The notes under the pieces: model-generated
What the model saw: only the letters and a program-made list of their open reading frames with translations
Databases searched by the model: none
What the model was told of the DNA's origin: nothing
Translations under genes and position numbers: made by a program
Assembly: GCA_964590575.1 (NCBI GenBank)
Contig: CAZPWM010000027.1
Coordinates: 1 to 37,000 of the forward strand
DNA length: 37,000 nucleotides
Direction of reading: 5' to 3'
DNA from: an uncultured archaeon
Lineage (GTDB): Archaea; Asgardarchaeota; Thorarchaeia; Thorarchaeales; Thorarchaeaceae
Shown here: piece after piece, positions 3,652 through 24,726 of the stretch
Layout: every line of letters starts with the position of its first letter
Numbering within the stretch: position 1 is the stretch's first letter

Positions 3652-4647
3652 CTACGACCTCCTTTCAAGAAGACCATTTTCGAAATACCAGTCAATCGCT
3701 CTTTGGAATGCCTCGACCATACTGATTTGAGGCGCCCATCCAAGCAAACGTTTTGCTTTCTCGTTTGAATACACATGATTCGACAGTATCATATCTACGG
3801 ATTTTCCATGCCAAAAGAAAGTCATCTTTTTCCGATTCTTGAATGGACTCATCAGAACCATCCCAAATTTAGCCAAAATACCAGGGACACGAAGTCGTGG
3901 AGGTTTCACACCTAATCGTTCAGTCACGACATCTACAAACTCCTCCCAACTAACGGCTTCATCGGGACAGAGAATAATCGTGTTATTTAGAGCAGACATA
4001 GGTGTTAGTGCAGCAACAAACGCAGCAACCACATCATCAACGTGGATAAACATGATTTGAGAACTCATATTGCGGGGTAGTGCAAAGACCTTTCCATTAT
4101 ACAATTCTTTAGCAACCTCATATATGATGTAAAGGTCACCTTCACCCGTCACGCCAGATGGGCGAAGAATGATATGTGCCAACCCCGTATCCTCAGTGAT
4201 CTCACGAATTGAATTCTCAGAAAGTATCTTGCTTTCTCCATAACTGAAATCAGGTCTTAGTTCTGTATCTTCAGTTCCAGGAGGGAATCTGACTGAACCA
4301 ATAGTTTCAGTTGTGGAACAGTAAATGAATCTCTCGACTTCAGTTCCTACACATGCGTTCATCAAGTTCGTGGTACCTTCCACATTCACCTTGAACATCA
4401 AATCTTCATCGCTAGGATAGAAATCGAAGTATGCAGCGAGGTGGATTACAACATTCACTCCTTGGACAGCAGCATTAAGACTTGGGATGTCAAACAAATC
4501 CGCTTCTCGAATCTCAATGGTCTTCGGTAAACCTTCTGTGTTACTAGTTGACCTTATGAGAGCTACGACCTCATGACCTGCTTCCAAAAGCTTTGGAATT
4601 AGTCTTCCTCCAATGAAACCAGATGCTCCTGTAACTAGGACCTTCAC
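3652..4647 (-). CDS. NAD-dependent epimerase/dehydratase (extended SDR)
   Basis: 'VLVTGASGFIG' Rossmann motif, 'HLAA', 'NVEGT', catalytic 'YGESK'. GTG at 4647 preferred over ATG at 4686 because similarity begins there. Confidence 0.9.
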   Translation of the reverse strand: MKVLVTGASGFIGGRLIPKLLEAGHEVVALIRSTSNTEGLPKTIEIREADLFDIPSLNAAVQGVNVVIHLAAYFDFYPSDEDLMFKVNVEGTTNLMNACVGTEVERFIYCSTTETIGSVRFPPGTEDTELRPDFSYGESKILSENSIREITEDTGLAHIILRPSGVTGEGDLYIIYEVAKELYNGKVFALPRNMSSQIMFIHVDDVVAAFVAALTPMSALNNTIILCPDEAVSWEEFVDVVTERLGVKPPRLRVPGILAKFGMVLMSPFKNRKKMTFFWHGKSVDMILSNHVYSNEKAKRLLGWAPQISMVEAFQRAIDWYFENGLLERRS

Positions 4648-4766
4648 TCGGACTCGCCTCGGACCAGTCCTCAGATGTCCCCTCATTTATCTCTATCTTA
4701 TCATCTCTACCAAAAGTAATATTCGTTCAGGTGAAATATAATCAGAGCAAATAGGTGTAGGAGATA

Positions 4767-5954
4767 GTGGAACCAGAGAATCGTAATGGCCAAGAAGGAA
4801 ACGAGGCATTGCCAACAGATGACACACCAACTGACTGGTTCAACATGGGTTGCTCACTTGCAACCACAGGAAAGCCTGTAGAAGCAGAGAGAGCGCTCAA
4901 GATTGCAATTAACGAACAAGAAGAGTATCCAATCGCGTGGGCGATTCTGAGTGCAGTACTTCTTTCTCAGGGGCGAGAAACTGATGCTGAGAAAGCCGGT
5001 AAGATGGCGCTAGGTCAATGTAAGGACCTGAAAATGACCTGGCCCAAGCTTAGAAGTATAATGTTCGCCCATGCAATCCAGAAGGGAGAAGATTGGAAGA
5101 GTCCGAGAAGAGTTAGGTTTGAGATTTCAAACACCACGGAGTGGGGTATAACACTCACTAAGTTGAGTGAATCCAGCAATGAAAAACTAGACAAGATTGG
5201 AGCAATTCAAGAAGAAACTTCTGATCCTACAATCATTGTAGACCATGATGAGGGGATTGCTGACGAAGAAGTCACATTGAAAGTCATGGAAGAAACACCC
5301 ACCTTACAGGAGGTTAGTATAGATGATTCTAGGTCAGCGGAAGTTTGGTTCAGTCTAGGAAGGGATCACCTGAACGCGAAAGAATTCGATAAAGCTGAAG
5401 TAGCATACATGAGGGGTCTGACTCTAAATCCTGAGAATGGTGATGCATTACTTAGAGTTGGTTCTCTATTGATGAGAAGGAATGCTTATGATAAAGCCGA
5501 GGACTCATTGGTGTTAGCTGTGAAGTATATACCTGAAAACCCTGAAGCATGGTTTCAACTAGGGATATGTCTCCAGGAGTCAGAAAGGTGGGTCGAATCA
5601 GTAGATGCTCTGAAGATGGCTAAGGACCTTAACCCGCAGAATCCCGAGGTGTGGGTAAAACTTGGAGAAGCAGACTTCTTTAGAAGCTTGTACCAAGAAG
5701 CAGCAAGTAGTTTCCTCAGAGCATTGAGAATTAATCCTGACCACATCTATGCAATGTTCTACCTCGGTCGGTGTATGGAATACAGGGGTAATGAAAATCA
5801 TGCACTCCGAATCTACAACAAACTACTCAATATTAATCCAAAAGATCCAGAAATTCTTGAGGAGCTAGCAAAATCGTTTCATCGCCTTGGTTCAACAAAT
5901 GATGCGCAACGTGCTAAGAGTCTAGCTGCGTATCATCGTAAATCAAAATTATAA
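4767..5954 (+). CDS. Tetratricopeptide-repeat protein
   Basis: About 2 N-terminal TPRs, an acidic linker, then about 6 tandem 34-aa TPRs (W..LG....A...A..L.P periodicity). Confidence 0.88.
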   Translation: MEPENRNGQEGNEALPTDDTPTDWFNMGCSLATTGKPVEAERALKIAINEQEEYPIAWAILSAVLLSQGRETDAEKAGKMALGQCKDLKMTWPKLRSIMFAHAIQKGEDWKSPRRVRFEISNTTEWGITLTKLSESSNEKLDKIGAIQEETSDPTIIVDHDEGIADEEVTLKVMEETPTLQEVSIDDSRSAEVWFSLGRDHLNAKEFDKAEVAYMRGLTLNPENGDALLRVGSLLMRRNAYDKAEDSLVLAVKYIPENPEAWFQLGICLQESERWVESVDALKMAKDLNPQNPEVWVKLGEADFFRSLYQEAASSFLRALRINPDHIYAMFYLGRCMEYRGNENHALRIYNKLLNINPKDPEILEELAKSFHRLGSTNDAQRAKSLAAYHRKSKL

Positions 5955-5967
5955 TTGAGATGTTTGA

Positions 5968-6711
5968 CTAACTCAAGAGCTCATCGAGCGCAGGTAGTAT
6001 CTCTCCGGCTTTTCCTGATATATGAATGTCTACTAGTCCTGTTAACGTAGTATGCTCTACATTGATCTCAATGATTTTCCCACCCCGCTTTTTTACAATA
6101 AGAGGGAACGATGCCGCAGGTTGCACAAGAGCTGAAGTTCCTATGATAATGCAAGTGTCTGCACGTTCTAGTTCGGTGTAAACTTGACTCATTATAACTG
6201 GGTCTAAAGACTCTCCAAACCACACAACATCAGGTCGTAGATGATTGTTGCATTGTGGACATAATGGAATTCCAGAAGCAGGCTTACTCAGTCGACTCCG
6301 ATATTCACATGAAGTACATTTGAGAGCCCATAGATTACCATGAACCGCATGGACATTTACTGACCCAGCCCGATTATGAAGGCCATCTACATTCTGTGTG
6401 ATTAGTGCTTTGAGGATACCTCTCTTCTCCCAACTCACTAGCGTATAATGTGCTGGATTGGGTGTGCATTCACCAATCAATCCTTGTCGCCAACTATACC
6501 ACTCCCAAACAAGAGATGGATTTCGCTCGAAAGCATTGGGTGTTGCAAGCTCCATAGCATCATAGTTACGCCATAATCCATCCTCACCCCTGAATGTGGG
6601 TATATTGGATTCCTTGGAGATACCTGCACCAGTTAGTGCTACAAGATAGTCTGTTTTCATTATAAAACCTGCAGCTTCATCGAGAGGACTCACATTCATT
6701 TTGAAACACAA
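5968..6711 (-). CDS. cobB: NAD-dependent protein deacylase (sirtuin, class III-like)
   Basis: 'TGAGISKESNIPTFRG', 'WY.WR', 'TQNVDGLH..AG', 'HG', CxxC..CxxC, 'RPDVVWFGE', 'GTSALVQPAA'. Confidence 0.95.
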   Translation of the reverse strand: MCFKMNVSPLDEAAGFIMKTDYLVALTGAGISKESNIPTFRGEDGLWRNYDAMELATPNAFERNPSLVWEWYSWRQGLIGECTPNPAHYTLVSWEKRGILKALITQNVDGLHNRAGSVNVHAVHGNLWALKCTSCEYRSRLSKPASGIPLCPQCNNHLRPDVVWFGESLDPVIMSQVYTELERADTCIIIGTSALVQPAASFPLIVKKRGGKIIEINVEHTTLTGLVDIHISGKAGEILPALDELLS

Positions 6712-6840
6712 GATACCAAGTACGTTTCTCTTTCTTAAGCTTGGCCCCTTGAAATTTACAAAAATTCGACAAAGCCATCATGCTTATTAGGTGATAGGAT
6801 AAAGAAATATTCACTATTGTGAACAAACAGGAGGAGAAAG

Positions 6841-7341
6841 ATGTCTGCTAGTGACTCCAGTAGGGAAAAACAAGTCAAACGAAGAACTTGGATGATGCCT
6901 CAGGAAGTGGAGGTATGGTATGTTCTTCCTGCAATCAGAAGAGAACTTGCTAAGGTGATGAAGACCAAGCTCGTTTCTCGTGCAGACGAGGATGGTAAAA
7001 TGGCGGACCACAAGATCACTCAGAAAGAGATTGCAAGGATGCTCGGCGTTACTGAACCAGCAATCACACAGTACTTGCTGAAGAAGAAGGGACAGAGGTC
7101 GAGAGGGGATCAAGTTAATCTTCCAGAATCCATTTTGAAAGAAATCGACAAATCAGCAGACATTATGATTGCAGAATATGAGAAAGCAAGAATGAAGGAC
7201 GATGAGGATATCTTTGAAGAAATGACGAGTGAAATCAACCGTATCATCAGAGCCATGAGGGATGATGGCGTGATGTGCGACATTCATAGAGAGTTTTGTG
7301 CCCATGTAAAGGATTCCTGCGATGCTTGCAGTACTAAGTAG
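6841..7341 (+). CDS. Archaeal HTH transcriptional regulator (COG2522-like) with C-terminal Cys/His cluster
   Basis: 'PQEVEVWYVLPAIRRELAK', HTH 'TQKEIARMLGVTEPAITQYL..KRG', C-terminal 'CDIHREFC......CDAC'. AGGAGGAG upstream. Confidence 0.85.
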   Translation: MSASDSSREKQVKRRTWMMPQEVEVWYVLPAIRRELAKVMKTKLVSRADEDGKMADHKITQKEIARMLGVTEPAITQYLLKKKGQRSRGDQVNLPESILKEIDKSADIMIAEYEKARMKDDEDIFEEMTSEINRIIRAMRDDGVMCDIHREFCAHVKDSCDACSTK

Positions 7342-7419
7342 AAGAGTTATTAGTTACACAACACCAGCGGAAGGATTTATTCGGGATTAGTGTACACCTT
7401 GAACTCCTAAGTAGGGTGT

Positions 7420-10885: not shown

Positions 10886-12046
10886 TTGAGCGGACAACAA
10901 AGAAAACTCGGTGTGGTTTTAGCTATTACGGTGCTGGTTGTTATAGGTGCCTTTGGAGCAGTGATGGTAATGGTCCCAAATGTACCAAATCTGGACCCAG
11001 TCCCTGAAGTCCTTCTTACTGGAGGGGATGGAAGAACAACAAGCATCACTCTCACAGAAATGACCGAGATGACGGTAATCGATAGAAACGGTTCATATCA
11101 GAATTCATATGGTAACGTTCGAGGAGAAGGAAACTACAAGGGGATACTGATAGCAGATCTTGTGAACTTGGTTGGGGGTATGCAGGACATAGATCTAGTC
11201 ACCATAATTGCTGATGATGGATACAATCAGACCTTTGAGTACAGCAAAGTCTTTCCCAATGCATCCATATGGGGTATACAAGGGGATATGGTTCTGGCAT
11301 ACGAATTTAATGGGTCAATTGTTCCGGACTACGAGGATGGGTACAAACTCATGTTCCTTCCAGAGGATGGATATTACGACAATGCTGATGCTAATGCAAC
11401 AACAGATCCAGACCCATATGCTGCTGGACCTCAATGTGTATCCAATGTGGTTGAGATTCGAGTCATTAGCATGACACCTGCATTGGTTGTTGATGTTGCA
11501 GACACGATTCAACATTTCAGCTTCGGCGAGATATTTGGAATGACGTCAGTCACGGGTGAGGGAGGATACAAGAAAACATCAGGTACAATCGCCGGTCCCA
11601 ATACTTTCACAGGAGTCACCGTCTTGTCACTCCTTGTACATGTCGCGACTCTTCCTGCAAACTACACAGTGACAGCCTATTCTCGTGATGGAAGGACTAC
11701 TGAATATACAAAGGCAATTGTGGAAGGAACTGTGAATGGATACACTCCAACAGGAGACCCTCTTGATTCAATTGAATCTACAATGGTACTAGCATATCTG
11801 ATCAATGGAGCACCTCTTGAAACTGGAGATGGACCTCTCAGGGTTGTCTTTTTGAACGAAGATGGTAATCTCACGGACGGCACTAGATGGGCAAAAGATG
11901 TAGTGAATATCACTGTCACAGAAGTGCCTCTTTCAGGATTGGTTCTAGAGGTACAAAATGTTTCAGTGACAGGTGAGTCACTGGTTGAAATGCAATTATG
12001 CAGTCAGAGCAAGCTTTTTACCTATACAGTCATGCGCAGATTTTAG
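10886..12046 (+). CDS. Membrane-anchored extracellular protein with two tandem molybdopterin-oxidoreductase-like domains
   Basis: TTG at 10886 follows AGGTGA. N-terminal TM helix. Two repeats: 'YKG..IADL / A.DGY / MVLAYEFNG / GYKLM / VSNVVEI' and 'FTG..VLSL / SRDG / MVLAYLING / GPLRV / AKDVVNI'. Nine N-x-S/T sequons. Confidence 0.65.
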   Translation: MSGQQRKLGVVLAITVLVVIGAFGAVMVMVPNVPNLDPVPEVLLTGGDGRTTSITLTEMTEMTVIDRNGSYQNSYGNVRGEGNYKGILIADLVNLVGGMQDIDLVTIIADDGYNQTFEYSKVFPNASIWGIQGDMVLAYEFNGSIVPDYEDGYKLMFLPEDGYYDNADANATTDPDPYAAGPQCVSNVVEIRVISMTPALVVDVADTIQHFSFGEIFGMTSVTGEGGYKKTSGTIAGPNTFTGVTVLSLLVHVATLPANYTVTAYSRDGRTTEYTKAIVEGTVNGYTPTGDPLDSIESTMVLAYLINGAPLETGDGPLRVVFLNEDGNLTDGTRWAKDVVNITVTEVPLSGLVLEVQNVSVTGESLVEMQLCSQSKLFTYTVMRRF

Positions 12047-12067
12047 AAAACCATGGAGAATTGACCG

Positions 12068-12697
12068 TTGGATCCGACCTATTCCGAAGGTGGAGAGGTA
12101 GACTCTCTTGTAGAACAAGCCTCTTCATTAATTAAGAAGCAGTTATTCAATGAAGCAGTTACTAAGCTTCAGAGAGGGCTCTCTGTCGATCCAACAAATG
12201 TACAAGCTTTGGAGAGCCTAGTTGTCTGCAATTTGGAGCTAGGGAAACCAAAGATGGCAATTCAAGCATTGAATAGCCTCCTTAAAATTGAGCCTACATC
12301 CTCATCTAAATGGGGAGATAAAGGCTTCATCCACCTAATGCTCAATGAAAACTCTGAGGGAATTGGAGCGTTAAGACAGAGCCTCAAGTTACAACCACGA
12401 GATGTTCGTAAATGGGAACTACTCGCAACTGCGCTTATCTCTGAGGAACAGTGGGAGGAAGCAATTGATACTTTGGAAAAATCATTGGACTTGGACCCAT
12501 CCTCTGCAGTAACGTGGTATAATTTAGCGGTCTGCTATCTATACTTCGAGGATTTCTCAGCTGCAATCCAAGCAGCTGAGTATGCAATTACAATCGACCC
12601 CTCCATAGCTGAGCTAGCGGAGGAGTGGATGGACCTTATTGATGAGGATTTCATCGAGGAAGAGTATCCATCAATTGACGGAATAGCTGCATCTTAG
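12068..12697 (+). CDS. Tetratricopeptide-repeat protein with acidic tail
   Basis: About 5 tandem TPRs (A...L..AL.LDP, W..LA). C-terminus EEWMDLIDEDFIEEEY. Confidence 0.88.
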   Translation: MDPTYSEGGEVDSLVEQASSLIKKQLFNEAVTKLQRGLSVDPTNVQALESLVVCNLELGKPKMAIQALNSLLKIEPTSSSKWGDKGFIHLMLNENSEGIGALRQSLKLQPRDVRKWELLATALISEEQWEEAIDTLEKSLDLDPSSAVTWYNLAVCYLYFEDFSAAIQAAEYAITIDPSIAELAEEWMDLIDEDFIEEEYPSIDGIAAS

Positions 12698-12712
12698 AAA
12701 TATCTATGTATC

Positions 12713-14620
12713 CTAATTGCTTGTACCTGGTTTTTCTTCAGGATTAATCTTCTCGATTTCCTTTTGAATAGCCTTTTGAGCGTCTTTAAGCTTGAATTCA
12801 TCTGCTGCTACAAGAGCTTGTTCAAGTGCAGCGAGTATTTGGCTCGTTTCAAGTGTTCTCTCAGTTTCATTTACTATGGTATGAAGTGCTTCGATCTTCT
12901 TAGGCAGCACACTCAGAAGACCTTCAATTGCTTCTTGAGCCTCTTCTTTTGATGTGAATGATGTGTCTTGTTCAGAGTCGTAGGAAGTCACTATTCTGTC
13001 TATCTGACCATATAGTCGTCTATATTCATCCAGCGCCCGTGTAAGAATCTGTTTCACTTCACCTTCAGAGTCTGCATGTTCAAGAGCAGATTCCAGTTTT
13101 TCTATAGCACTCTCAAGAAACTCCTTTCGCTCTGGTAGTTTCGTGCGTTTACGTTCCTTCCAACGCCATTCATTGGAAATCTGCCGGGTTAAGGCAAGTG
13201 CATTATTGATAGTTTCTCGAAACACATCAAACTTAGACATGGCTGCATTCAGGTCTTTTTCGAGTGTTTCGATAACGTGTGTGAGCTGGTAACTGAGCAT
13301 GTCACTAGCTTGTGCTTCTGCTAGTACATAACTCTCCTTGATTGCCCGACCAGCCAACCCCCACAAGCGCTCGATGTCCTCAGGAGACCTATCAGTTCTT
13401 TTTCGAATATCAAGTTCCTCTGACAGTTGTTGAATCTCGTGACTGATTGTCTGTAGCTCTTGGATTTTAGCTTTCAGAAGTGCTTTGCCAAGTCTGGTGT
13501 TCAGTTCATCAGTGAGGATCTGACGTTCTTCAGGAACTTCTTGGAGCGCATGAGTATTATCAATTAGCAATTGCAGCGCATGCTCATAATCAAGTACAGA
13601 TTCATGAAACAATCCGTCTTGATAATGTTGATCCGCTTTCTTCTCAAGTTCAAGAGCTCCTTCTAGCACATCATACGGAGATGTCTTTAGCAAGCTATCA
13701 GCTAGAATGGGAGGAGAATCAGAACAAACATCAAAAGGTCTTCCTGCGGTTATCAGTCGGACTATTGTGATCCCTTCCTGCGTTGCGATATAGAGAAGAT
13801 CGTGATCAGCTTTGACCCATTCTATCGTCTGGCTATCTATCTGCAGCTCTCCAATCTCTTCCCCTCTCTTCAAGTCCCACATAGTAACAATCCCGTTTGC
13901 CATCGCGGACACTAGGTAGTAACTACTTGCCCACATAGATGTAATTGGATGTGAACTCCTTGACTCAAGAGTCCGAACCAGACCCCATTCAACGCGATCA
14001 TAGACATCAATCTCACCAATTGATGTTCCCACCAACACAAATTCATTATTCCCTGAGAGAACTCCACCCTTGCCCTTCTTATCTAATCGAGCCAGTTCAG
14101 AAGGTGCAGTATCACGGTCTTTCAACCATACATGGGGTTCCTCTTTTTTTGTGCTGGTGCATATGATTTTGTCATCAGACCAGAGACTTGTAAGGTCTGA
14201 TTTGTGAAGTTGCCAACTTGAGGTTTCATGTGTATCTTTCTGGATAGATACTAATCTTCCATCCCTTGCCCCCACATAGAAATAATCTCCATGAAGAGTC
14301 GAGGTCAAAGCCTGATAGCTTAACTCAAACCACCCAGTTAATCCCCAAGTTTCTTTCTTCCAGACATAGACTCTGCGTTCACATGTAGCAAAGACTTGAG
14401 TGTTATCGACATCAACAATAAGTGGAGGCGTATCAGTATCCTTTAGTTCAGCCACTTTCCGCCAATCGGTTTTCGACCAAACCCGTACTCGATAATCTTG
14501 GCAAGCAGCATACAAATAATGCTCATCATATGTAATATCAACTGCAGGTGCATCTAGTTTGATTACTATCTCATGACTTAGAGATGCACTGTCATTTGAG
14601 CCCAAGGAGCCTTTATCCAT
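12713..14620 (-). CDS. WD40-like beta-propeller fused to helical (MIT-like/coiled-coil) C-terminal region
   Basis: aa 1-290 contain about 7 repeats of ~40 aa ('DYRVRVWS', 'RRVYVWK', 'DGRLVS', 'GEIDVYD', 'NGIVTMWD'). aa 318-635 are E/K/L/A-rich helices. Confidence 0.8.
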   Translation of the reverse strand: MDKGSLGSNDSASLSHEIVIKLDAPAVDITYDEHYLYAACQDYRVRVWSKTDWRKVAELKDTDTPPLIVDVDNTQVFATCERRVYVWKKETWGLTGWFELSYQALTSTLHGDYFYVGARDGRLVSIQKDTHETSSWQLHKSDLTSLWSDDKIICTSTKKEEPHVWLKDRDTAPSELARLDKKGKGGVLSGNNEFVLVGTSIGEIDVYDRVEWGLVRTLESRSSHPITSMWASSYYLVSAMANGIVTMWDLKRGEEIGELQIDSQTIEWVKADHDLLYIATQEGITIVRLITAGRPFDVCSDSPPILADSLLKTSPYDVLEGALELEKKADQHYQDGLFHESVLDYEHALQLLIDNTHALQEVPEERQILTDELNTRLGKALLKAKIQELQTISHEIQQLSEELDIRKRTDRSPEDIERLWGLAGRAIKESYVLAEAQASDMLSYQLTHVIETLEKDLNAAMSKFDVFRETINNALALTRQISNEWRWKERKRTKLPERKEFLESAIEKLESALEHADSEGEVKQILTRALDEYRRLYGQIDRIVTSYDSEQDTSFTSKEEAQEAIEGLLSVLPKKIEALHTIVNETERTLETSQILAALEQALVAADEFKLKDAQKAIQKEIEKINPEEKPGTSN

Positions 14621-14669
14621 AATGTCGCCCCAAGATTTTCAATAAGTGTTCTCCCTCAATTTTAGAGTG

Positions 14670-14787
14670 CTTAAGGGTGTTTCTTTCACAGCTAAATGGC
14701 TGAAAATGAGGCTAATTTGTTATTTTAAGGAACTCAATACATGATACAATCGTTGAAAAGGGAGGACCCACACAGAAAGAACTTAAG
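14670..14787. promoter_or_regulatory. Putative divergent BRE/TATA promoter pair
   Basis: On +, GAAAGAACTTAAG at 14775-14787 lies 45 nt before the 14832 start. On -, GAAAGAAACACCCTTAAG at 14687-14670 lies 50 nt before the 14620 start. SD GGAGGT at 14819-14824. Confidence 0.45.
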
Positions 14788-14831
14788 ACATCCACCACCA
14801 AAAACAGTCATATTAGACGGAGGTAGGCATC

Positions 14832-17522
14832 TTGGATACCAGCGGATGGAGACGAGAATTAGATAGACTCGCGGAATTAAAAGGAATCCTTGTTTCAGTC
14901 AACCCTGCGATGGAAGAGCAAGCGGACCGACAGGTTCGACAGCTCTACGACATCTTCGCAAACTTGACCAAGATGGAAAATGATCTTGCCACATCAGGAT
15001 TTATGAAAAAGAGAAAGTTTCAAGCTCAGGTCGACAAGACAAGTAATGATCTTGAAACAGATTTTATGAGAGTAACTCGTGACTTTGCAGAGTATTTTCG
15101 TAAGGAACACAAAGACACACTTACCATTACACCAAAGATTCAGGCAATCAAACCCGCAGAGGTTAAGGGAATCATGGCTCTGAATTTTCCTGGTATTGGA
15201 GCGGGAGATATCAAGGATTTTGCGAAACTTCATGAGTTTGCTAAGGCATTCTCAAAACTCTACAGTGTCATTCATGAAGACGTCGAGCGGGATGTTAAAT
15301 CAACTCTTGATGAGAACAAGGCCATAGTAGATACCTATGAACGACACATCACGATAGACAAAAGCGAGGTTGCTACAACAGTATCCAATGATGATGTAAT
15401 CGGTATGTCCCTAAGGGATCTTATCATTTTGAATGAAAAACTACAGGTAGATAGACAGTTTCTAGATGGCAGGAAAGATGAAGTAAGTAGACTACTCAGT
15501 TCATCACTTGTTGGTTCTACAGAATCTCTCCAAGCATCTGTGGAAACTGCGGCTAGACTTGGTCTGGAACTTCCAATGGAGTTCTCCCAAGAACTAAGAA
15601 TAATCGCTAGGGATGCCTCCAAGGCAGACACGCTCACAGCTCTAATATCTCTTGAGAACCAGCTTCACTCAGCACGGTTGAAGGTAGCTAATGCACTCCG
15701 TGACAGAATCATAAACATCAAACATGAAGTAACAACGAAGATAGTAGCAGGTGGAATCCCCACGACTGCTGATGTCATCCCAACGCCACCAAATGTGAGT
15801 GTGGAAGGAGACGAAATTGCACCCCTATTATCCAGCTACCAGCGTATGGTTGAGTGGGAAGGACAGGTGAAAATCGCTCTCAGAGAACGTTTGTTTGAGC
15901 TGCTTGATGATATCGAGAAAGCGACAGAAGCCCCCGATGATGCTGGAATTAAGGATATAGTTGCAGTGCGTCAGTTCATCGCAGACTCGAAGAAAACTTT
16001 GAAGAAAGCGGGTATCGACGATATGGTCAGAGTCTATCTCCAATCTAAGACGATGGATGATGAATATCGTAAAAACATCACTGAGAGTATCCGCGGTTAT
16101 TTAACTAGATTTAATGAACTAGCAACTTCAGCTGACCGAGTCCTCGATCATGCTCAACTAAGCAAGAAAGCTCCTAAGGTTGAGGAACTTGAGGGTGGCA
16201 TTGTCTACTTGCTTGGTTCACTAAAAAGTCTAAAAGACGCTGTCGAGAGCGGCGTTGCTACATTCCGAGAAGCTTGTGAACAAGAGATTGATGCCATCGT
16301 GCATGACCTCCAGACGGTCAAGCCAGCTTATGCTGAAATTTTCATGCCCATCATCATTGACCTAGATGAGGGATCAAATAGAATCAAACTATTGGATGAC
16401 TTTGCTGAAATCAAGTCTGAGATGCGGTCTATCAAGGATAACATTCTCGTCAAAGCGAAAGATGCACTAGAGAACCTCAGGTACAGACTTGGTGTTAAAA
16501 TAAGATTGGCTGCAGCCAAGTTAATGGGTGCAGGAGTGGAAATACCACCTGAAGCACAAGAAGCAATTAGTGAACTGAATAATGTTGGCGTAGCTGCTGA
16601 TACAGTATTCAGTCTACCAGCAATAGCACGAAAAATGGTAGAGATTTACGAAAAGAAGATTCAGGAGAAGATAGTTGAGAAGCTCGGAGTCGAAGTTGAT
16701 TCGCTCATATCTAGTCTTGACAGAGCAAGTAGTATTGGCGTGAAACTTGGAAAGGAATTGAAAATGCTCAACGACCTCAAGACCAATCCACCAACTGAGC
16801 TCGAAGACGCAGCGGAGGCATTTGACAAACTCATGAATCTGACTACTTCGCCTAATGTTCACAAGAAAATCAGGGAACGAGTAGACGAGGCATACGTTCA
16901 GATTAAAGGAGCGCTATCATTGTTCGAGGAACAGGGTATGTCTGAATTTGTCGAACGTCTGAAAGTTCTCATTGATCAAGTTCCAGCTAAACTGGAAACA
17001 GATTCACCGCATGTGAATGAAGCATTAGATGTCTGTCTGACATTGGCAAACATCCAGGAAGAGATGCTCCAGATGATCAAGAGTATGGCTAGTAAGAATG
17101 GCGAAGCACACGAAGCTGAGTTGAAGGAGAAAAGTCAGTACTACTCAACAATTCAGAGAGTAGCTGAGAATCATCCTGCGGACTTCAGTAAGCTTGTGTT
17201 TGATATCAAGAAGATGAAGTCACTCGAGGAGGGTCTTACCGAAGCTGTTGACCTAGATGTAGCGATTGCAAACTTCCATGAGCTTGGAAGGCTACGTAAA
17301 CAGTGGTTGGACAAGGCGGTTTCAATGGATGACTGGCACAAGTCACTCAGAATGTTCATGACAGGTTTCAGTCCAGCTGACAAACCAGAAGTACGTGACA
17401 AATTCATTGATGACGCCATAAGGAAAATAAGAGAGACCTACAGCAGAGAGGATATTAGTTCCTACCTCAGTTGGGCCATCAAAGAGAGCGCTCTAGCTTT
17501 GGTCGATTCAAGGAAGAAATAG
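14832..17522 (+). CDS. Large alpha-helical/coiled-coil repeat protein, function unknown (896 aa)
   Basis: Long ORF with strong SD, E/K/L/A/D-rich helices, recurring G-[LVI]-x-[LI]-P turns. No TM segment and no Walker A motif seen. Confidence 0.8.
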   Translation: MDTSGWRRELDRLAELKGILVSVNPAMEEQADRQVRQLYDIFANLTKMENDLATSGFMKKRKFQAQVDKTSNDLETDFMRVTRDFAEYFRKEHKDTLTITPKIQAIKPAEVKGIMALNFPGIGAGDIKDFAKLHEFAKAFSKLYSVIHEDVERDVKSTLDENKAIVDTYERHITIDKSEVATTVSNDDVIGMSLRDLIILNEKLQVDRQFLDGRKDEVSRLLSSSLVGSTESLQASVETAARLGLELPMEFSQELRIIARDASKADTLTALISLENQLHSARLKVANALRDRIINIKHEVTTKIVAGGIPTTADVIPTPPNVSVEGDEIAPLLSSYQRMVEWEGQVKIALRERLFELLDDIEKATEAPDDAGIKDIVAVRQFIADSKKTLKKAGIDDMVRVYLQSKTMDDEYRKNITESIRGYLTRFNELATSADRVLDHAQLSKKAPKVEELEGGIVYLLGSLKSLKDAVESGVATFREACEQEIDAIVHDLQTVKPAYAEIFMPIIIDLDEGSNRIKLLDDFAEIKSEMRSIKDNILVKAKDALENLRYRLGVKIRLAAAKLMGAGVEIPPEAQEAISELNNVGVAADTVFSLPAIARKMVEIYEKKIQEKIVEKLGVEVDSLISSLDRASSIGVKLGKELKMLNDLKTNPPTELEDAAEAFDKLMNLTTSPNVHKKIRERVDEAYVQIKGALSLFEEQGMSEFVERLKVLIDQVPAKLETDSPHVNEALDVCLTLANIQEEMLQMIKSMASKNGEAHEAELKEKSQYYSTIQRVAENHPADFSKLVFDIKKMKSLEEGLTEAVDLDVAIANFHELGRLRKQWLDKAVSMDDWHKSLRMFMTGFSPADKPEVRDKFIDDAIRKIRETYSREDISSYLSWAIKESALALVDSRKK

Positions 17523-17534
17523 GAGTAAAAATCA

Positions 17535-18929
17535 ATGTTCGGTAGCAGTCCACCTAAAAAACCCGTTGAGAGTGATGACACGACAAAAGCAGCCGAAGTC
17601 TTCGCCATTGGAATTGGTGAATGTGGCTCAAATATAGTGGGATCGTATCTGCAGACTAGCAGGGATAAGAAACTACCCTCAAGAGTAAGAGGCTATTTAC
17701 TCATCAACACTGACAGAGCAGACCTTACAAAGGTGCGTCAAAAATACGGCATCCCGAAAGAGAACACGCTCCTATATGGTGCAAGTGAAATCGGTGTCGG
17801 TGGTCGTTTCATGGATGGGTATAATTCCATTATGGAATCCAAAGATATCATTTTCGACCAACTCGGTAATCTTGGCTTTGAGGGTGTATCAGGTTTCTGT
17901 ATCTTCACGAGCTTGGGTGGAGGAACAGGTTGTGGAGGTACCCCAGCACTAATTGAATTACTTAAGCAGAGATTCCAAGAGGAAGAAGGACGTCGGATTT
18001 TCGTCTATGTTGTTGGCATACTTCCGTTCGAAGGGCAGTCCAGCGAGGCACTAAACTCAATCTGGGCTGTATCCAAGTTACTACGTGCACAACTGCAAGA
18101 ACGTGGAGCAGACCTTACAATACTTCTGTCGAACAGAACTATGTTGAAGAGAATCCTACAGTGGAGAAAAGGTGATACTGTTGACTACCTTCGAAGAGAA
18201 CTTGAAGTTGACATCGCCGATATTGATTCAATTGAAACAATGGTACCATCTACCTTAGAAGAAGCCACTGCAGTGGAGGCTCGAACTGAACAGGCGTTCG
18301 TTGAGCTTGTTAACCCCTTAGCACTGGATGTAGTTGAAGCAATGCTCTCTCCTGGTGTCTGGGAGAAATCAAAGGATGTGTTCCCAACAACAGACCTTGC
18401 TGATTATGCAAGAAAATTGGACCCAGTTGTAGTGCCAGCACTCTATGCAGACATAGGTCTAATTCCTGATGCAGGAAGCATGCCTAAACAACTCAAGGCA
18501 ATGATTGACTATGCTGTAACAGAGTGTTCCTACGCAGATGTTGGTGATGAACCGAATGCTGAGAGTGTCTACTATGTCATGTCTGGACCAAGCAATATAG
18601 CAAAAGCCGAATATGGAATGCACCTTAAGGAAGCTCTAGACAAATTCATTGCTCCTGGTGCAGCGATAACGCCCTGCTACGTGCAATACCATGACAAAAA
18701 TCCATCAACAAGCTTACTACTTCTTCTGGGGCTTCCAAAGATTCCTGAACTAGTCCAAATAATAAATGAAGCAACGCAGCTAGTCAATCTACATAGTGGT
18801 GCTTCGCCATTGAAGCAGGGCTGGTTCATGAGGTCAAAAGGAACCACTCGAAAAGAACTTGTCGATGCAATCAACGACTTCCGTGAGTTGTTCAGCTACT
18901 ACATGACTCCAAGTGACGCAGTAGAATAA
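17535..18929 (+). CDS. Divergent tubulin/FtsZ-superfamily GTPase
   Basis: T1 'GIGECGSNI', T2 'INTD..DL', T3 'GVGG', T4 signature 'SLGGGTGCG', T5 'ILPFEG', T6 'LSN', T7-like 'TDLADY'. Confidence 0.92.
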   Translation: MFGSSPPKKPVESDDTTKAAEVFAIGIGECGSNIVGSYLQTSRDKKLPSRVRGYLLINTDRADLTKVRQKYGIPKENTLLYGASEIGVGGRFMDGYNSIMESKDIIFDQLGNLGFEGVSGFCIFTSLGGGTGCGGTPALIELLKQRFQEEEGRRIFVYVVGILPFEGQSSEALNSIWAVSKLLRAQLQERGADLTILLSNRTMLKRILQWRKGDTVDYLRRELEVDIADIDSIETMVPSTLEEATAVEARTEQAFVELVNPLALDVVEAMLSPGVWEKSKDVFPTTDLADYARKLDPVVVPALYADIGLIPDAGSMPKQLKAMIDYAVTECSYADVGDEPNAESVYYVMSGPSNIAKAEYGMHLKEALDKFIAPGAAITPCYVQYHDKNPSTSLLLLLGLPKIPELVQIINEATQLVNLHSGASPLKQGWFMRSKGTTRKELVDAINDFRELFSYYMTPSDAVE

Positions 18930-18945
18930 ATTTGGCGGTGACAAA

Positions 18946-20013
18946 TTGTCGGATTCCTCATCATTCCATTACGAAGATCTCATCGATAGACTTCTCCTTG
19001 TAGTCACATTGAACTCAACACTCATCCACTTTCTCCTCAGCTCTCAGGTTGAGGATACAATAGATCCGGACAGAGTTGATTCACTGACTCAAGGTCTTCT
19101 GAGAACACGTAAATGGATGGAGGAAGCAACGACGATGAAAGGAATCCCACCATCAACTCAGAACATCATGAGTCTTATCGTGAAGCGGCTTTCGCAAGTT
19201 GAAAGTCTATTGCCCAAACTTTCCAATAAAGCTAAACAAATAGAATCTGGATCCGCGACTCAAGAGATTCTATCTTTCCTTGATGGAAAGGAACCTCAAA
19301 CCAAAAGACCAACCCCCACAAGTGTATCTGCAACAGACCAAGATCCCGAGTTGGTACCATTAGTTGGAGGCGAACAACCGAAACCGATTGAACCATTTAG
19401 AAAAGTCGATGTTGAAGATGATCAGTTTGGTCTTATCGGTCAAAGTCAGAGGTTGATTCAGCAGTATTCAAGTAGGTGTCACGTTTTACTTCCTACATTC
19501 TGGTTGGAATCATTAAGAGAAATTCATCGTTACAGGTCCGAATCACCATATCTTGGTGATGTTGTAGAACTTCCAGCACGGATCCTCGTTAAGACTGCTA
19601 AAGGTCTCCTAACGGAGGCACCTGGAGCTCGACTACTACAAGATCTCTTGAAACATCGTCAACAAGAAAATTACCTGAATGGTTCCGAGATGGAGCGCAT
19701 CGAAAGAGCTGTAGCGAAATATTTCCAAGGAGTAGAACCGATTCTCAAAGAAGAGAAAGTAAACGTCAAGGAAAAGATCCTTGAAGCACAGACTGCCTTC
19801 GATGGGTTTGGATGGGGAGGTCCTGAACTTGAGAAACGCATCATCAAGAGACTGAACCAACAGGTGGAAGAAGCACTCCAAAATGCAGAATCAGGTACAG
19901 ACCCAGCACGACAGGTCATCTATGCAGAGATAGCCAAATTGTTATGCAAACTTCAACATGCTCTGTTAGCTGAACCAAGACAAATAGAGATTCTAGCTCA
20001 GATGAAACCTTGA
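18946..20013 (+). CDS. Hypothetical helical protein (355 aa), third gene of the tubulin-like operon
   Basis: TTG start 16 nt after the upstream stop, preceded by GGCGGTGA. Two helical regions separated by a Pro/Thr/Gln-rich linker. Confidence 0.75.
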   Translation: MSDSSSFHYEDLIDRLLLVVTLNSTLIHFLLSSQVEDTIDPDRVDSLTQGLLRTRKWMEEATTMKGIPPSTQNIMSLIVKRLSQVESLLPKLSNKAKQIESGSATQEILSFLDGKEPQTKRPTPTSVSATDQDPELVPLVGGEQPKPIEPFRKVDVEDDQFGLIGQSQRLIQQYSSRCHVLLPTFWLESLREIHRYRSESPYLGDVVELPARILVKTAKGLLTEAPGARLLQDLLKHRQQENYLNGSEMERIERAVAKYFQGVEPILKEEKVNVKEKILEAQTAFDGFGWGGPELEKRIIKRLNQQVEEALQNAESGTDPARQVIYAEIAKLLCKLQHALLAEPRQIEILAQMKP

Positions 20014-23757: not shown

Positions 23758-24726
23758 ATGATGGACCTTATCCATGAAGGGAAAGTGAAGAAAGTCTTTC
23801 AGGACCCGCAATCATCTGATAGAGTAATTATTGAATTCAAAGATACTGCTACAGCGGGCGAGGGTGAGAAGGAACAAAAGGTTGCTGGCAAGGGTGTACT
23901 TGCGTGTAAGATGACGGAATTCCTTCTCGGATATCTTGAAGGCAAGGGTATTGACACCTATTTTGTGAAAGCACTTGAAGGTCCCAAAGTTCTCTGCAGA
24001 AAAGTGGACATTTTTCCTGTTGAGGTTGTGTGCAGGAACCTTGCTGCAGGATCATTCTGTAAACGTTATGGAGTTGAGAAAGGAAAAAACTTGGATAGTC
24101 CACTCGTTGAGTTCTTTTTGAAAGATGACAGCCTGAATGATCCATTGATTACAGAAGATGCAATCACAAGATTAGATCTTGTAACATACCAGAATTTACA
24201 GTTGATGCGGTCAGTTAGTCTGTCTGTCAATTATTATTTGTCAGAGTTGTTTAAGCAAAAGAATCTTAGTCTAATAGACTTCAAGCTGGAGTTTGGATGC
24301 ACTAAAGCAGGATACATTGTTCTAGCAGATGAGCTATCAGGAGACACAATGCGAATCTGGGATATTAAGTCAAAATCATTGAATAAGGATGTTTTCAGGG
24401 AGGACAAAGGAAACCTAATAGAGGTCTATACGAAACTTGTCGATGCACTTACTCATACTAAACCGGAAATTGTCAAGGCTAGACAGGAAATAGTCCAAGT
24501 CATCGTAAAGCCTAAGACTGGAATCAAGAATCCGCCAGGCGAGGTTACAAAGAAAGCATTAATCCGTCTAGGATTTGGTGTGGTTGATGAAGTCCGAGTT
24601 GGAAAGATTTTCAATATCTTTCTACCGAAACCTGTGACATCTGAAATTCTATCGCAGCTCAACATTATGAATATTAAACTACTCTCAAATCCAATATCTG
24701 AGAAGCATGAGGTGAGGCTCAGCTAG
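23758..24726 (+). CDS. purC: SAICAR synthetase fused to C-terminal PurS domain (PurC-PurS)
   Basis: 'EGK.KK', 'GKG', 'EVVCRN..AGS', 'KDD...DP', 'DFKLEFG', 'LADE'. The last ~80 aa ('V.VKPKTGIKNPPG....AL.RLGF..V.EVRVGK...KLLSNP..E') are PurS-like. Confidence 0.9.
   Translation: MMDLIHEGKVKKVFQDPQSSDRVIIEFKDTATAGEGEKEQKVAGKGVLACKMTEFLLGYLEGKGIDTYFVKALEGPKVLCRKVDIFPVEVVCRNLAAGSFCKRYGVEKGKNLDSPLVEFFLKDDSLNDPLITEDAITRLDLVTYQNLQLMRSVSLSVNYYLSELFKQKNLSLIDFKLEFGCTKAGYIVLADELSGDTMRIWDIKSKSLNKDVFREDKGNLIEVYTKLVDALTHTKPEIVKARQEIVQVIVKPKTGIKNPPGEVTKKALIRLGFGVVDEVRVGKIFNIFLPKPVTSEILSQLNIMNIKLLSNPISEKHEVRLS

What the first reader, a model, noticed from the sequence alone, without database searches (positions are those of the whole stretch)
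12713..14620. WD40 propeller + MIT-like helical protein head-to-head with the tubulin-like operon
Seen: after a ~7-blade propeller, aa 318-389 (nt 13669-13454) read 'LEGALELEKKADQHYQDGLFHESVLDYEHALQLL...PEERQILTDELNTRLGKALL'. This follows the MIT pattern (A.EL..KA...D..G.Y.EA...Y..AL.LL.....E.K..L...I...L.RA). A second similar segment, 'AIEKLESALEHADSEGEVKQILTRALDEY', lies near nt 13000-13135. Known: MIT domains bind ESCRT-III or microtubules (Vps4, spastin, katanin p60), katanin p80 is a WD40 protein, and propeller + helical stack is the protocoatomer layout. Inference: an adaptor linking the tubulin-like filament to ESCRT-III or membranes. A single TPR hairpin could mimic the pattern.
Basis: partly seen in the sequence, partly recalled or inferred. 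Interest (0 to 1): 0.7.

Follow-up and report, generated by a model that had tools for sequence, protein, structure and literature searches.

The report
WD40 propeller with helical rod
This gene encodes a scaffold-type protein found only in one family of Thorarchaeota, built from a seven-bladed WD40 propeller and a rod of three-helix bundles; it lies beside a conserved tubulin-like gene cluster, but nothing shows it is a true MIT-domain protein or works with ESCRT.

Summary
The ORF (12713-14620, minus strand, 635 aa) is real and conserved: 226 homologues, and full-length relatives were found only in one Asgard family (33 of 43 sampled genomes). A confident model (pLDDT 86) shows a 7-bladed WD40 propeller (aa 14-293), a linker with an invariant LLKTSPYDVLE motif, and a rod of four three-helix bundles (aa 315-625).

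It superposes on whole solved MIT domains (Z 9.6-10.2, rmsd 1.6-3.0 Å). It superposes equally well on a terminal TPR plus capping helix (Z 9.6-10.7). By sequence it behaves as a single TPR-like motif, and the Pfam MIT model does not hit the window copy. Its third helix runs on into the next bundle, as in spectrin repeats. The "second MIT-like segment" shows no similarity to the first.

The gene is divergent from an Asgard-wide three-gene module built around a CetZ-related tubulin homologue. That adjacency holds in 31 of 33 relatives. However, the whole ~12-gene block is syntenic, several genomes keep the module without this gene, and the ESCRT genes lie on another contig.

Verdict: a lineage-specific WD40-rod scaffold. 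The link to the tubulin-like module is plausible but unproven, and the ESCRT link is unsupported.

The parts
12713..14620 (-). Gene F: 635-aa WD40 plus helical-rod protein (P0001); stop codon at 12713-12715
   Evidence: ORF list and translation. 226 homologues, the best 120 at 57-92% identity. No 19-residue window with Kyte-Doolittle hydropathy above 1.6, so probably soluble.
13742..14581 (-). Seven-bladed WD40 beta-propeller, aa 14-293; blades covering aa 60-137 are the most conserved
   Evidence: 28 strands in the model, pLDDT mostly 86-95. Foldseek: beta-TrCP 3e-18, WDR5, COPB2, LIS1, KIF21A. Pfam propeller hits are all below their cut-offs. Conservation 0.83-0.84 for aa 60-137.
13679..13741 (-). 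Linker aa 294-314, low confidence at 305-311, ending in the invariant motif L311-T313-S314-P315-Y316-D317-L319-E320
   Evidence: pLDDT below 50 at aa 305-311. Invariant columns in 39 sequences. Conservation 0.93 for aa 310-314.
13463..13678 (-). The H2-H3 loop is invariant (D354, N355, H357, L359, E361, V362, P363, E365, R366).
   Evidence: Models. VIA-align matches to MIT domains (2w2u_B Z 10.1, rmsd 1.9, 72 aligned of 74; 5lb7_B Z 9.6, 76 of 78) and equally to TPR plus cap (4it4_A Z 10.7; 5mgx_E Z 9.6). TPR-type sequence signals.
13226..13462 (-). Three-helix bundle 2, about aa 387-465: second half of H363-406, H413-436, first half of H441-490
   Evidence: Secondary structure. Spectrin-repeat alignments span model residues 72-250 (1u5p_A Z 9.9, 171 aligned, rmsd 4.5; 1u4q_B Z 10.4, 229 aligned). 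Bundle limits are my reading of the helix lengths and aligned ranges.
12965..13225 (-). Three-helix bundle 3, about aa 466-552: second half of H441-490, H495-515, H521-550.
   Evidence: generic three-helix matches at model residues 147-250. Invariant W485, L495, R498, L502. No similarity to bundle 1.
12740..12955 (-). Three-helix bundle 4, aa 556-627 (H558-581, H585-608, H612-625), after a low-confidence break at 549-554; the least conserved part
   Evidence: pLDDT 79-86; below 50 at 549-554. Conservation 0.50-0.65.
14621..14831 (.). 211-bp divergent intergenic region between F and G
   Evidence: ORF coordinates. The same divergent arrangement is seen in relatives. No promoter analysis was done.
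14832..20013 (+). Neighbouring module G-H-I (functional link to F unproven): G 14832-17522 (896 aa, family unknown), H 17535-18929 (464 aa, CetZ-related tubulin/FtsZ GTPase), I 18946-20013 (355 aa, family unknown)
   Evidence: Pfam Tubulin 70.8 bits for H; nothing for G or I. H is nearest to CetZ 4b46 at E 2.4e-10. The trio is conserved in 10 of 10 loci outside the family, with I in 9 of 10.
12068..12697 (+). Gene E: 209-aa TPR protein, convergent with F. It lies directly upstream of G on the same strand in genomes that lack F.
   Evidence: Pfam TPR_2 at 1.2e-20. Present in all 19 family loci examined.

Best explanation
F is a soluble scaffold or adaptor protein restricted to one Thorarchaeota family. 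Its N-terminal 7-bladed WD40 propeller offers a binding platform for a protein or peptide. A flexible linker carrying an invariant LLKTSPYDVLE motif joins it to a rod of about 310 residues made of four successive three-helix bundles. In the first three bundles, long helices run from one bundle into the next, as in spectrin repeats.

It is a TPR-clan-type helix-turn-helix plus a third helix. It has the shape of an MIT domain, but it is built into the rod and is not a recognisable member of the MIT family.

Inferred mechanism (not shown): the protein acts as a two-ended spacer. The propeller holds one partner. The conserved tip of bundle 1 (the pre-helix motif plus the H2-H3 loop) and the basic EWRW.ERKRT patch hold another, or mediate self-association.

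The most likely client, at roughly one chance in three, is the neighbouring Asgard-wide module of a CetZ-related tubulin homologue (H) with its two unknown partners (G, I). F would be a late, dispensable, lineage-specific accessory to that module.
For: Architecture:
- Full-length model: pLDDT 86.4, 28 strands, 11 helices. C-terminal model: pLDDT 86.2, pTM 0.61.
- The propeller matches WD40 structures at E 3e-18 and weaker.
- Bundle 1 matches both MIT and TPR-plus-cap structures at Z 9.6-10.7. Model residues 72-250 match six spectrin or plakin repeat entries at Z 9.0-10.4.

TPR-type sequence signal in bundle 1:
- The profile against PDB is best on consensus TPR CTPR390 (E 1.2e-4), at profile positions 22-63.
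- TPR_11 and TPR_2 each hit 16 of 27 orthologues.
- In the profile search of 1.84 billion representatives, 34 of 58 hits matched only positions about 4-114, in 3-21 repeated stretches each. Of the 9 I scanned, 8 are TPR proteins and 1 is a WD40 protein with repeated TPR-like units.

Restricted range:
- Full-length matches occur in 33 of 43 genomes of family f1. Outside f1 there are only WD40-only hits.
- The rod profile finds no other architecture.

Linkage:
- In 31 of the 33 family genomes with F, F or an F fragment lies divergently next to G (28 genomes) or at the expected distance from H (3 genomes). The other 2 sit at contig ends.

Other:
- All five proteins E-I lack hydrophobic segments.
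- Conservation peaks at blades covering aa 60-137, at aa 310-314 and at aa 355-386.
Against: No binding partner was shown by any test.

Adjacency is weak evidence here. The whole block AAk-RidA-Moly-TPR-[F]-G-H-I-CoA ligase-like-IDI2-221aa is syntenic across 19 loci and includes plainly metabolic genes.

F is missing while G-H-I is kept. In 5 of 19 loci, E abuts G with gaps of 119-243 nt. Those genomes are 93-99% complete. They have no F match with the full protein or with the rod profile (positive controls matched in 3 of 3).

Outside the family, the G-H-I module has unrelated housekeeping neighbours and no F-like gene.

H's conserved C-terminal helix is the same in genomes with and without F.

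Helical-bundle matches at Z about 10 are below the level (about 13) at which the tool says such folds are more than a common arrangement. 'Spectrin-like' and 'MIT-like' therefore describe shape, not descent. The full-length pTM is 0.49, so the relative position of propeller and rod is not known.
Confidence: 0.55

Rival explanations
1. One reading: aa 318-389 is a genuine MIT domain that binds ESCRT-III MIM tails (or the tubulin-like filament). F would then couple the tubulin-like filament to ESCRT-III or to membranes, in the manner of katanin, spastin or Vps4.
For: Bundle 1 superposes on whole MIT domains:
- archaeal Vps4 2w2u_B: Z 10.1, rmsd 1.9, 72 aligned of 74
- calpain-7 8uc6_B: Z 10.2
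- yeast Vps4 2v6x_A: Z 9.8, 80 of 82
- SKD1 2cpt: Z 9.7, 23% identity
- MITD1 4a5x_B: Z 9.7, 71 of 73
- katanin p60 5lb7_B: Z 9.6, rmsd 1.6, 76 of 78
- Vta1 and USP8: Z 9.2
In addition, 4 of 27 orthologues give a weak Pfam MIT hit (best E 0.0095). The divergent linkage to the tubulin-like operon is conserved. H ends in a strongly conserved amphipathic helix that could be a ligand (the ligand idea is inference).
Against: TPR-plus-cap structures match equally well or better (4it4_A Z 10.7, 1p5q_A 10.4, 2fbn_B 9.8, 5mgx_E 9.6). The Pfam MIT model does not hit the window copy. A six-frame search of the genome with the MIT model finds only Vps4. The rod profile finds no MIT chain in PDB at E<=10. 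hhalign against 29 Thorarchaeota Vps4 MIT domains gives 4-5% probability, no better than against the neighbouring TPR protein at 6-11%. Helix 3 is 44 residues long and is shared with bundle 2, so the domain is not free-standing. Vps4 and ESCRT-III lie on another contig. None of E-I has a membrane segment.
Confidence: 0.1
2. F has nothing to do with the tubulin-like module. It is a general WD40/TPR-like scaffold for an unrelated process, and it sits next to G only because it was inserted into a block whose gene order is inherited across the family.
For: The whole ~12-gene neighbourhood, metabolic genes included, keeps its order in 19 of 19 loci. F is absent from 10 of 43 family genomes although G-H-I is present in 16 of 16 genera. 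F evolves faster (41-82% identity) than H (79-94%) and G (57-88%). One genome has 2.4 kb inserted between F and G (L034). The module's neighbours differ in other Asgard families.
Against: F lies divergently beside G with a short shared intergenic region (211 bp in the window) in 31 of 33 judged genomes. No genome was seen with F elsewhere. WD40-plus-helical proteins are frequent partners of cytoskeletal filaments (recalled general knowledge).
Confidence: 0.35
3. F is a protocoatomer-like membrane-coat or tethering protein: a beta-propeller followed by an alpha-solenoid, as in COPI, Sec31, nucleoporins and HOPS/CORVET.
For: The domain order is N-terminal propeller followed by a helical region. 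The beta'-COP (COPB2) propeller is among the Foldseek hits, at E about 1e-14. A 2026 preprint reports 34 Thorarchaeia sequences in a CORVET/HOPS-like propeller-solenoid structural cluster (PMC13734099, passages read). Whether F is one of them cannot be told, because the supplements are closed.
Against: The helical part is only about 310 residues. It is built of three-helix bundles with two very long helices of 44 and 50 residues, not of stacked helical hairpins. Foldseek finds no helical-repeat match at E<=1e-3, and TM-scores are about 0.2. No membrane or lipid-binding element was seen.
Confidence: 0.05

Closest known systems
MIT domains of Vps4/CdvC, katanin p60, MITD1, calpain-7 (Pfam PF04212)
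   Same: The three-helix bundle of aa 313-386 superposes on the whole domain (70-80 residues, rmsd 1.6-3.0 Å, Z 9.6-10.2).
   Different: There is no significant sequence match for the window copy. The third helix continues for 20 more residues into a second bundle. The domain lies in the middle of the protein, not at a terminus on a flexible linker. There is no ESCRT gene nearby.
Terminal TPR motif plus capping helix, as in FKBP38/FKBP52/Cpr7-type and consensus TPR proteins
   Same: An equally good structural fit (4it4_A Z 10.7; 1p5q_A 10.4; 5mgx_E 9.6 with rmsd 1.7 over 79 residues). It is also the only significant sequence signal (CTPR390 E 1.2e-4; TPR_11 and TPR_2 each in 16 of 27 orthologues; repeated hits in multi-TPR proteins).
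   Different: There is a single motif, not an array. The window copy itself falls below the Pfam TPR thresholds.
Spectrin/plakin repeats
   Same: Successive three-helix bundles in which one long helix ends one bundle and begins the next. Six such entries align over 164-229 residues at Z 9.0-10.4.
   Different: No sequence similarity was found: no Spectrin family among the 8 Pfam rows for the window copy at E<=1. The rmsd is high (4.5-7.7 Å). The bundles are not detectable duplicates of one another. Convergence on a simple fold is likely.
Eukaryotic WD40-plus-helical cytoskeletal adaptors (katanin p80, coronin, NEDD1); recalled, not tested
   Same: A propeller followed by a C-terminal helical region, associated with tubulin or actin systems.
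   Different: No homology beyond the generic WD40 fold was found. NEDD1 and KIF21A appear only as weak WD40 sequence hits.
'Halo_adaptin' loci of haloarchaea (Makarova et al. 2024, PMC10936438; passages read)
   Same: Propeller-containing proteins are encoded together with a CetZ-like tubulin homologue. The authors propose a sorting or remodelling role.
   Different: Those proteins carry Ig-like adaptin-appendage domains and sit with a Vps4-like ATPase and a PspA/ESCRT-III-like gene. Neither is at this locus.

Membership tests
MIT domain (PF04212) | Significant match to the family's sequence profile | tested here: not met
   The window copy has no MIT row at E<=0.01 or at E<=1 on the C-terminal part. 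4 of 27 orthologues hit weakly, best E 0.0095. A six-frame search of the genome at E<=0.01 finds only Vps4 on C13. The rod profile finds no MIT chain in PDB at E<=10. hhalign against 29 Thorarchaeota Vps4 MIT domains gives 4-5%.
MIT domain (PF04212) | Antiparallel three-helix bundle of about 70-80 residues | tested here: met
   2w2u_B (72 aligned of 74, rmsd 1.9, Z 10.1); 4a5x_B (71 of 73); 5lb7_B (76 of 78, rmsd 1.6); 2v6x_A (80 of 82). The match is not specific, since TPR-plus-cap structures score the same.
MIT domain (PF04212) | Free-standing module whose helix grooves are open for MIM peptides | tested here: inconclusive
   Helix 3 spans aa 363-406 and continues into the next bundle.
MIT domain (PF04212) | Binds ESCRT-III MIM tails; gene association with ESCRT | tested here: not met
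   This verdict covers gene association only. Vps4 and an ESCRT-III-like gene are on contig C13, not in the window, and no ESCRT gene is in the 19 syntenic loci. Binding itself is not testable with these tools.
TPR (Pfam TPR_1/2/11 families) | Match to the 34-residue helix-turn-helix motif profile | tested here: inconclusive
   16 of 27 orthologues hit TPR_11 and 16 of 27 hit TPR_2 (best E 2.3e-5), but the window copy hits neither. The family profile hits consensus TPR proteins at E 1.2e-4 and, repeatedly, multi-TPR proteins.
TPR (Pfam TPR_1/2/11 families) | Tandem array of three or more motifs forming a superhelix | tested here: not met
   Only one motif region (profile positions about 17-64) is matched. 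The remaining helices form bundles with helices of 44 and 50 residues.
WD40 beta-propeller | Closed propeller of four-stranded blades | tested here: met
   28 strands between aa 14 and 291, i.e. 7 blades. Foldseek: beta-TrCP 3e-18, WDR5, COPB2, LIS1.
WD40 beta-propeller | WD40 repeat profile above the curated threshold | tested here: not met
   PF00400 scores 16.9 bits against a cut-off of 27. All ten propeller families fall below their cut-offs. This is a divergent WD40-like propeller.
Protocoatomer (propeller + alpha-solenoid) | C-terminal alpha-solenoid of stacked helical hairpins | tested here: inconclusive
   Foldseek finds no helical-repeat match at E<=1e-3, with TM-scores about 0.2. The VIA rows are MIT, TPR or spectrin-like, with no coat protein listed. 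The helix lengths argue for bundles.
Spectrin repeat | Tandem three-helix bundles joined by a continuous helix | tested here: met
   1u4q_B (229 aligned, Z 10.4); 1u5p_A (171 aligned, rmsd 4.5, Z 9.9); also 1s35_A, 5j1g_B, 3f57_A, 1cun_A. Helices of 44 and 50 residues. This is shape only, and Z is below the tool's caution level of about 13.
Spectrin repeat | Sequence match to the family | tested here: not met
   No Spectrin family is among the 8 Pfam rows for the window's C-terminal part at E<=1. None is among the PDB sequence hits.

The most novel reading that the evidence does not exclude
F is a lineage-specific accessory adaptor of a so far uncharacterised, Asgard-wide tubulin-superfamily module (G-H-I). 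Its MIT-shaped first bundle grips a helical tail motif, either the strongly conserved C-terminal amphipathic helix of the CetZ-related protein H or an ESCRT-III MIM. The propeller, held at the end of a spectrin-like spacer, ties the filament to a second structure. That would be a prokaryotic forerunner of the MIT/WD40 logic used by katanin and by spectrin-type cross-linkers.
Probability: 0.12. Interest if true: 0.65.

Novelty: new variant of a known kind. Interest (0 to 1): 0.35.

Why it matters
Taken alone, the gene is a lineage-restricted scaffold of familiar folds, which is of modest interest.

Its value lies in what it points to. Beside it sits a three-gene module built around a CetZ-related tubulin homologue. 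That module is conserved at 43-94% identity in several Asgard families, and its two partner proteins have no known relatives. If F does work with that module, it would give a first handle on the interaction partners of an unstudied Asgard cytoskeletal system. It would also be an example of an MIT-shaped, TPR-derived bundle built into a rod.

The case is also a caution. A three-helix 'MIT pattern' cannot be told from a single TPR plus a capping helix, either by pattern or by fold.

Tried and rejected
1. Co-folding of H (alignment A3, 464 aa) with F aa 1-390 (alignment A1). The score was 0.00 in both runs and the tool's verdict was 'no answer', so this is evidence neither for nor against binding. 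F with ESCRT-III tails, F with G or I, and F with itself were therefore not tried.

2. Foldseek of the rod model against PDB. Nothing at E<=1e-3; generic TPR and 14-3-3 rows at TM about 0.2.

3. ESM Atlas for the rod (best score 0.84) and for G (0.88 to its own Thorarchaeota cluster). Both are below the level at which a hit counts as more than a lead.

4. NCBIfam for F. Only a chance-level LpoB hit (18 bits against a cut-off of 110).

5. Profiles of G (A4) and I (A5) against PDB sequences. Nothing below E 0.01.

6. hhalign of the four bundles against each other. No internal duplication detectable; best probability 5.9%.

7. RNA evidence. One metatranscriptome run held 7% of the sampled words. 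When laid, its contigs cover parts of G and H only and none lies on F. That shows nothing about F's expression.

8. P0175, a 613-aa WD40 protein hit by the rod profile at E 2.8e-4. BLASTP shows that its C-terminus is three repeated TPR-like units, each resembling aa 330-365 of F. It is therefore not a homologue of the rod.

9. Literature searches.
- 'Thorarchaeota' + 'CetZ': 0 papers.
- At least 4 of Asgard/tubulin/Thorarchaeia/FtsZ/WD40/Thorarchaeota: 13 papers, 10 listed, none on this gene by title or abstract.
- 'MIT domain' + WD40 + Asgard: 3 papers, 1 listed.
- 'spectrin repeat' + Asgard: 0 papers.
I found no description of this protein in those searches. Supplements are closed. The cluster tables of PMC13734099, the tree files of 10.64898/2026.02.15.705738 and the tables of PMC10936438 could name F or H without my seeing it.

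Groove exposure and the propeller-rod interface could not be measured.
Full report
**What is there.** The minus-strand ORF 12713-14620 encodes 635 residues. It is a real, conserved gene. A search of 5.8 billion proteins gave 226 hits at E<=0.001. The best 120 are 57-92% identical, nearly all about 630 residues long, and labelled mostly Thorarchaeota where a name exists. The window lies on contig C27 of a 3.4-Mb, 91%-complete assembly that also carries two canonical FtsZ genes.

In a sample of 201 genomes of the phylum, full-length matches occur only in the window's own family f1 (33 of 43 genomes). Outside f1, only the propeller region gives weak hits, at E 2.9e-12 or weaker.

**Architecture.** I built an alignment of 39 family members (A1) and used it for structure prediction.
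- AlphaFold2 gives mean pLDDT 86.4 and pTM 0.49.
- Residues 14-291 form 28 strands, i.e. seven four-stranded blades.
- Foldseek matches ordinary 7-bladed WD40 domains: beta-TrCP at 3e-18, then WDR5, COPB2, LIS1 and KIF21A.
- Pfam sees only sub-threshold propeller hits, so the propeller is divergent.
- A low-confidence linker (aa 305-311) ends in the invariant motif LLKTSPYDVLE.
- The rest is all helical: H315-334, H338-354, H363-406, H413-436, H441-490, H495-515, H521-550, H558-581, H585-608 and H612-625.
- A separate model of aa 305-635 (alignment A2 of 27 sequences) gives the same helices, with pLDDT 86.2 and pTM 0.61.
- No segment of F or of its neighbours E, G, H and I is hydrophobic enough for a membrane span.

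**Is aa 318-389 an MIT domain?**

By fold the resemblance is real. An exhaustive VIA-align search of 48,161 PDB representatives placed model residues about 9-82 (aa 313-386) on whole MIT domains:

| Chain | Protein | Z | rmsd (Å) | Aligned |
|---|---|---|---|---|
| 2w2u_B | Sulfolobus Vps4 | 10.1 | 1.9 | 72 of 74 |
| 8uc6_B | calpain-7 | 10.2 | 2.1 | 70 |
| 2v6x_A | yeast Vps4 | 9.8 | 3.0 | 80 of 82 |
| 2cpt | SKD1 | 9.7 | 2.0 | 70 |
| 4a5x_B | MITD1 | 9.7 | 2.0 | 71 of 73 |
| 5lb7_B | katanin p60 | 9.6 | 1.6 | 76 of 78 |

The same residues fit a last TPR motif plus capping helix just as well: 4it4_A Z 10.7, 1p5q_A 10.4, 2fbn_B 9.8, 5mgx_E 9.6, and also 2hr2_A and 7kak_F. The tool warns that Z below about 13 for helical bundles may reflect only a common arrangement.

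By sequence the signal is TPR-like, not MIT.
- The A2 profile against all PDB sequences is best on consensus TPR proteins (CTPR390, E 1.2e-4, profile positions 22-63). It finds no MIT chain at E<=10.
- Pfam on the 27 orthologues gives TPR_11 and TPR_2 in 16 of 27 each (best E 2.3e-5) and MIT in 4 of 27 (best E 0.0095). The window's own copy hits neither.
- A profile search of 1.84 billion representatives returned 58 proteins. 24 are single-stretch family members or fragments. The other 34 matched only profile positions about 4-114, in 3-21 repeated stretches each.
- Of the 9 I scanned from those 34, 8 are TPR proteins. The ninth is a WD40 protein whose tail is three TPR-like repeats.
- hhalign of aa 312-408 against 29 Thorarchaeota Vps4 MIT domains gives 4-5% probability. 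Against the neighbouring TPR protein it gives 6-11%.
- A six-frame scan of the genome with the MIT model finds only Vps4 on contig C13, next to an ESCRT-III-like gene.

The bundle is also not free-standing. Its third helix is 44 residues long and runs on into the next bundle.

It has no detectable similarity to the first bundle (0.5%).

**The rod.** Model residues 72-250 align with six spectrin or plakin repeat entries: 1u4q_B (229 residues, Z 10.4), 1u5p_A (171 residues, rmsd 4.5, Z 9.9), and 1s35_A, 5j1g_B, 3f57_A and 1cun_A. The helices of 44 and 50 residues each span two bundles. That is the connectivity of tandem spectrin repeats (recalled knowledge). I therefore read the C-terminal half as four successive three-helix bundles, the last one set off by a flexible break at aa 549-554. 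This is a statement about shape. There is no sequence similarity to spectrin, and the bundles are not recognisable duplicates of each other. Foldseek found no helical-repeat or solenoid match. The protocoatomer comparison is therefore not supported.

**Neighbourhood.** F is divergent from three co-oriented genes:

| Gene | Size | Identity |
|---|---|---|
| G | 896 aa | no family in Pfam, NCBIfam, PDB profile or Atlas |
| H | 464 aa | Pfam Tubulin 70.8 bits; nearest solved relatives are CetZ 4b46 (E 2.4e-10), 3zid and 4b45; Asgard tubulin AtubA only at 1.8e-3 |
| I | 355 aa | no family |

H is not special to Thorarchaeota. Relatives at 50-63% identity carry Loki-, Hod-, Heimdall- and Hermod-type labels, and one is named 'Tubulin-like protein CetZ'. 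It occurs in 76 of 201 sampled genomes of the phylum, in eight families. In 10 of 10 loci from seven other families, G precedes H, and in 9 of 10 I follows it. [quoted passage not shown] This may be the H family, but I could not check.

**Does linkage imply function?**

For a link:
- Among the 33 other family genomes that have F, F or an F fragment lies divergently beside G in 28.
- In 3 more it lies at the expected distance from H.
- The remaining 2 are at contig ends. No genome shows F elsewhere.

Against a link:
- The entire block amino-acid kinase, RidA, molybdopterin oxidoreductase-like, TPR (E), [F], G, H, I, CoA-ligase-like, IDI2, 221-aa keeps its order in all 19 loci I fetched. Adjacency is thus inherited with everything else.
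- F is cleanly missing, with E abutting G on the same strand, in 5 of those 19 loci: one species of the window's own genus, three of genus g4 and one of g9.
- These genomes are 93-99% complete. They show no F with the full protein or with the rod profile. The profile did match 3 of 3 positive controls.
- G-H-I is present in 16 of 16 genera.
- Outside the family, the module's upstream neighbours are unrelated housekeeping genes.
- H's conserved C-terminal helix is unchanged in genomes without F.

F is therefore at most a dispensable, late accessory of the module.

**Most likely mechanism.**

Shown: a soluble two-part protein with a propeller and a rod. Its most conserved surfaces are the blades covering aa 60-137, the pre-helix motif with the H2-H3 loop at one tip of bundle 1, and a basic EWRW.ERKRT motif in bundle 3.

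Inferred: a two-ended adaptor or spacer. I put about one chance in three on the G-H-I module being its client, and about the same on an unrelated client.

**Comparison and novelty.** The folds are known. What is not described, in the searches I ran, is the combination of a divergent WD40 propeller with a rod of three-helix bundles whose first bundle is a TPR-derived, MIT-shaped unit. The nearest published analogy for a propeller protein encoded with a CetZ-like gene is the haloarchaeal 'Halo_adaptin' locus (PMC10936438, passages). Its proteins and partners are different.

A 2026 preprint lists Thorarchaeia propeller-solenoid and WD40 structural clusters (PMC13734099, passages). The supplements were closed, so F could be among them without my knowing.

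I rate F a new variant of a known kind with modest interest. The G-H-I module is the more interesting object.

Noticed in passing
window 14832-20013 (+); loci L074-L083: The three-gene module G (about 900-1185 aa, helical, no known family), H (CetZ-related tubulin/FtsZ GTPase) and I (about 300-360 aa, no known family) is conserved across at least eight Asgard families. H is 43-94% identical and was found in 76 of 201 genomes. G-H occur together in 10 of 10 loci outside the family, with I in 9 of 10. It appears uncharacterised.
   Followed up: partly
window 18800-18929 (H C-terminus); 19 loci: H ends in a nearly invariant amphipathic helix (consensus TRKELV.AI.DFRELFSYYM) followed by a short variable acidic tail. 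This is reminiscent of the partner-binding tails of FtsZ and tubulin. It is conserved whether or not F is present.
   Followed up: partly
window 12068-12697 (+): The 209-aa TPR protein E is present next to the module in all 19 family loci. In genomes lacking F it lies directly upstream of G on the same strand, with gaps of 119-243 nt. It is absent from the module's neighbourhood in other Asgard families. It could belong with G-H-I in this family.
   Followed up: no
L034 (G131:C21) 4902-7345: One genome carries about 2.4 kb with two small ORFs (205 and 124 aa) inserted between F and G.
   Followed up: no
L030 (G179:C11) 4636-6137: In one genome H is split into two overlapping ORFs (396 aa and 106 aa). 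This suggests a frameshift or an assembly error.
   Followed up: no
L078 (G139:C10) and L077 (G139:C6): One genome of another Asgard family has two copies of the G-H pair. The second copy lacks a recognisable I.
   Followed up: no
G016:C94:6190-6747; G016 and G108 rows: Some genomes carry further ORFs of about 610-680 aa with WD40 matches. One 623-aa ORF in G016 gives a weak hit (E 3.2e-5) to the C-terminal half of the rod profile. These are possible distant paralogues of F.
   Followed up: no
window 15631-16594 and 17886-18889: A sediment metatranscriptome run (X1) holds short contigs of 85-154 nt on G and H, with 0-15 differing letters each. The library is RNA, but DNA carry-over cannot be excluded, and some contigs may come from relatives.
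   Followed up: partly
window 23758-24726 (+): A 322-aa ORF combines PurC (aa 5-207) and PurS (aa 245-321) in one protein. It is followed by purQ and purL.
   Followed up: no
L037 (G037:C69) 10975-12831: In one genome of genus g4, the gene after H is a 618-aa ORF with no BLAST match to I. Its two congeners have a normal I.
   Followed up: no
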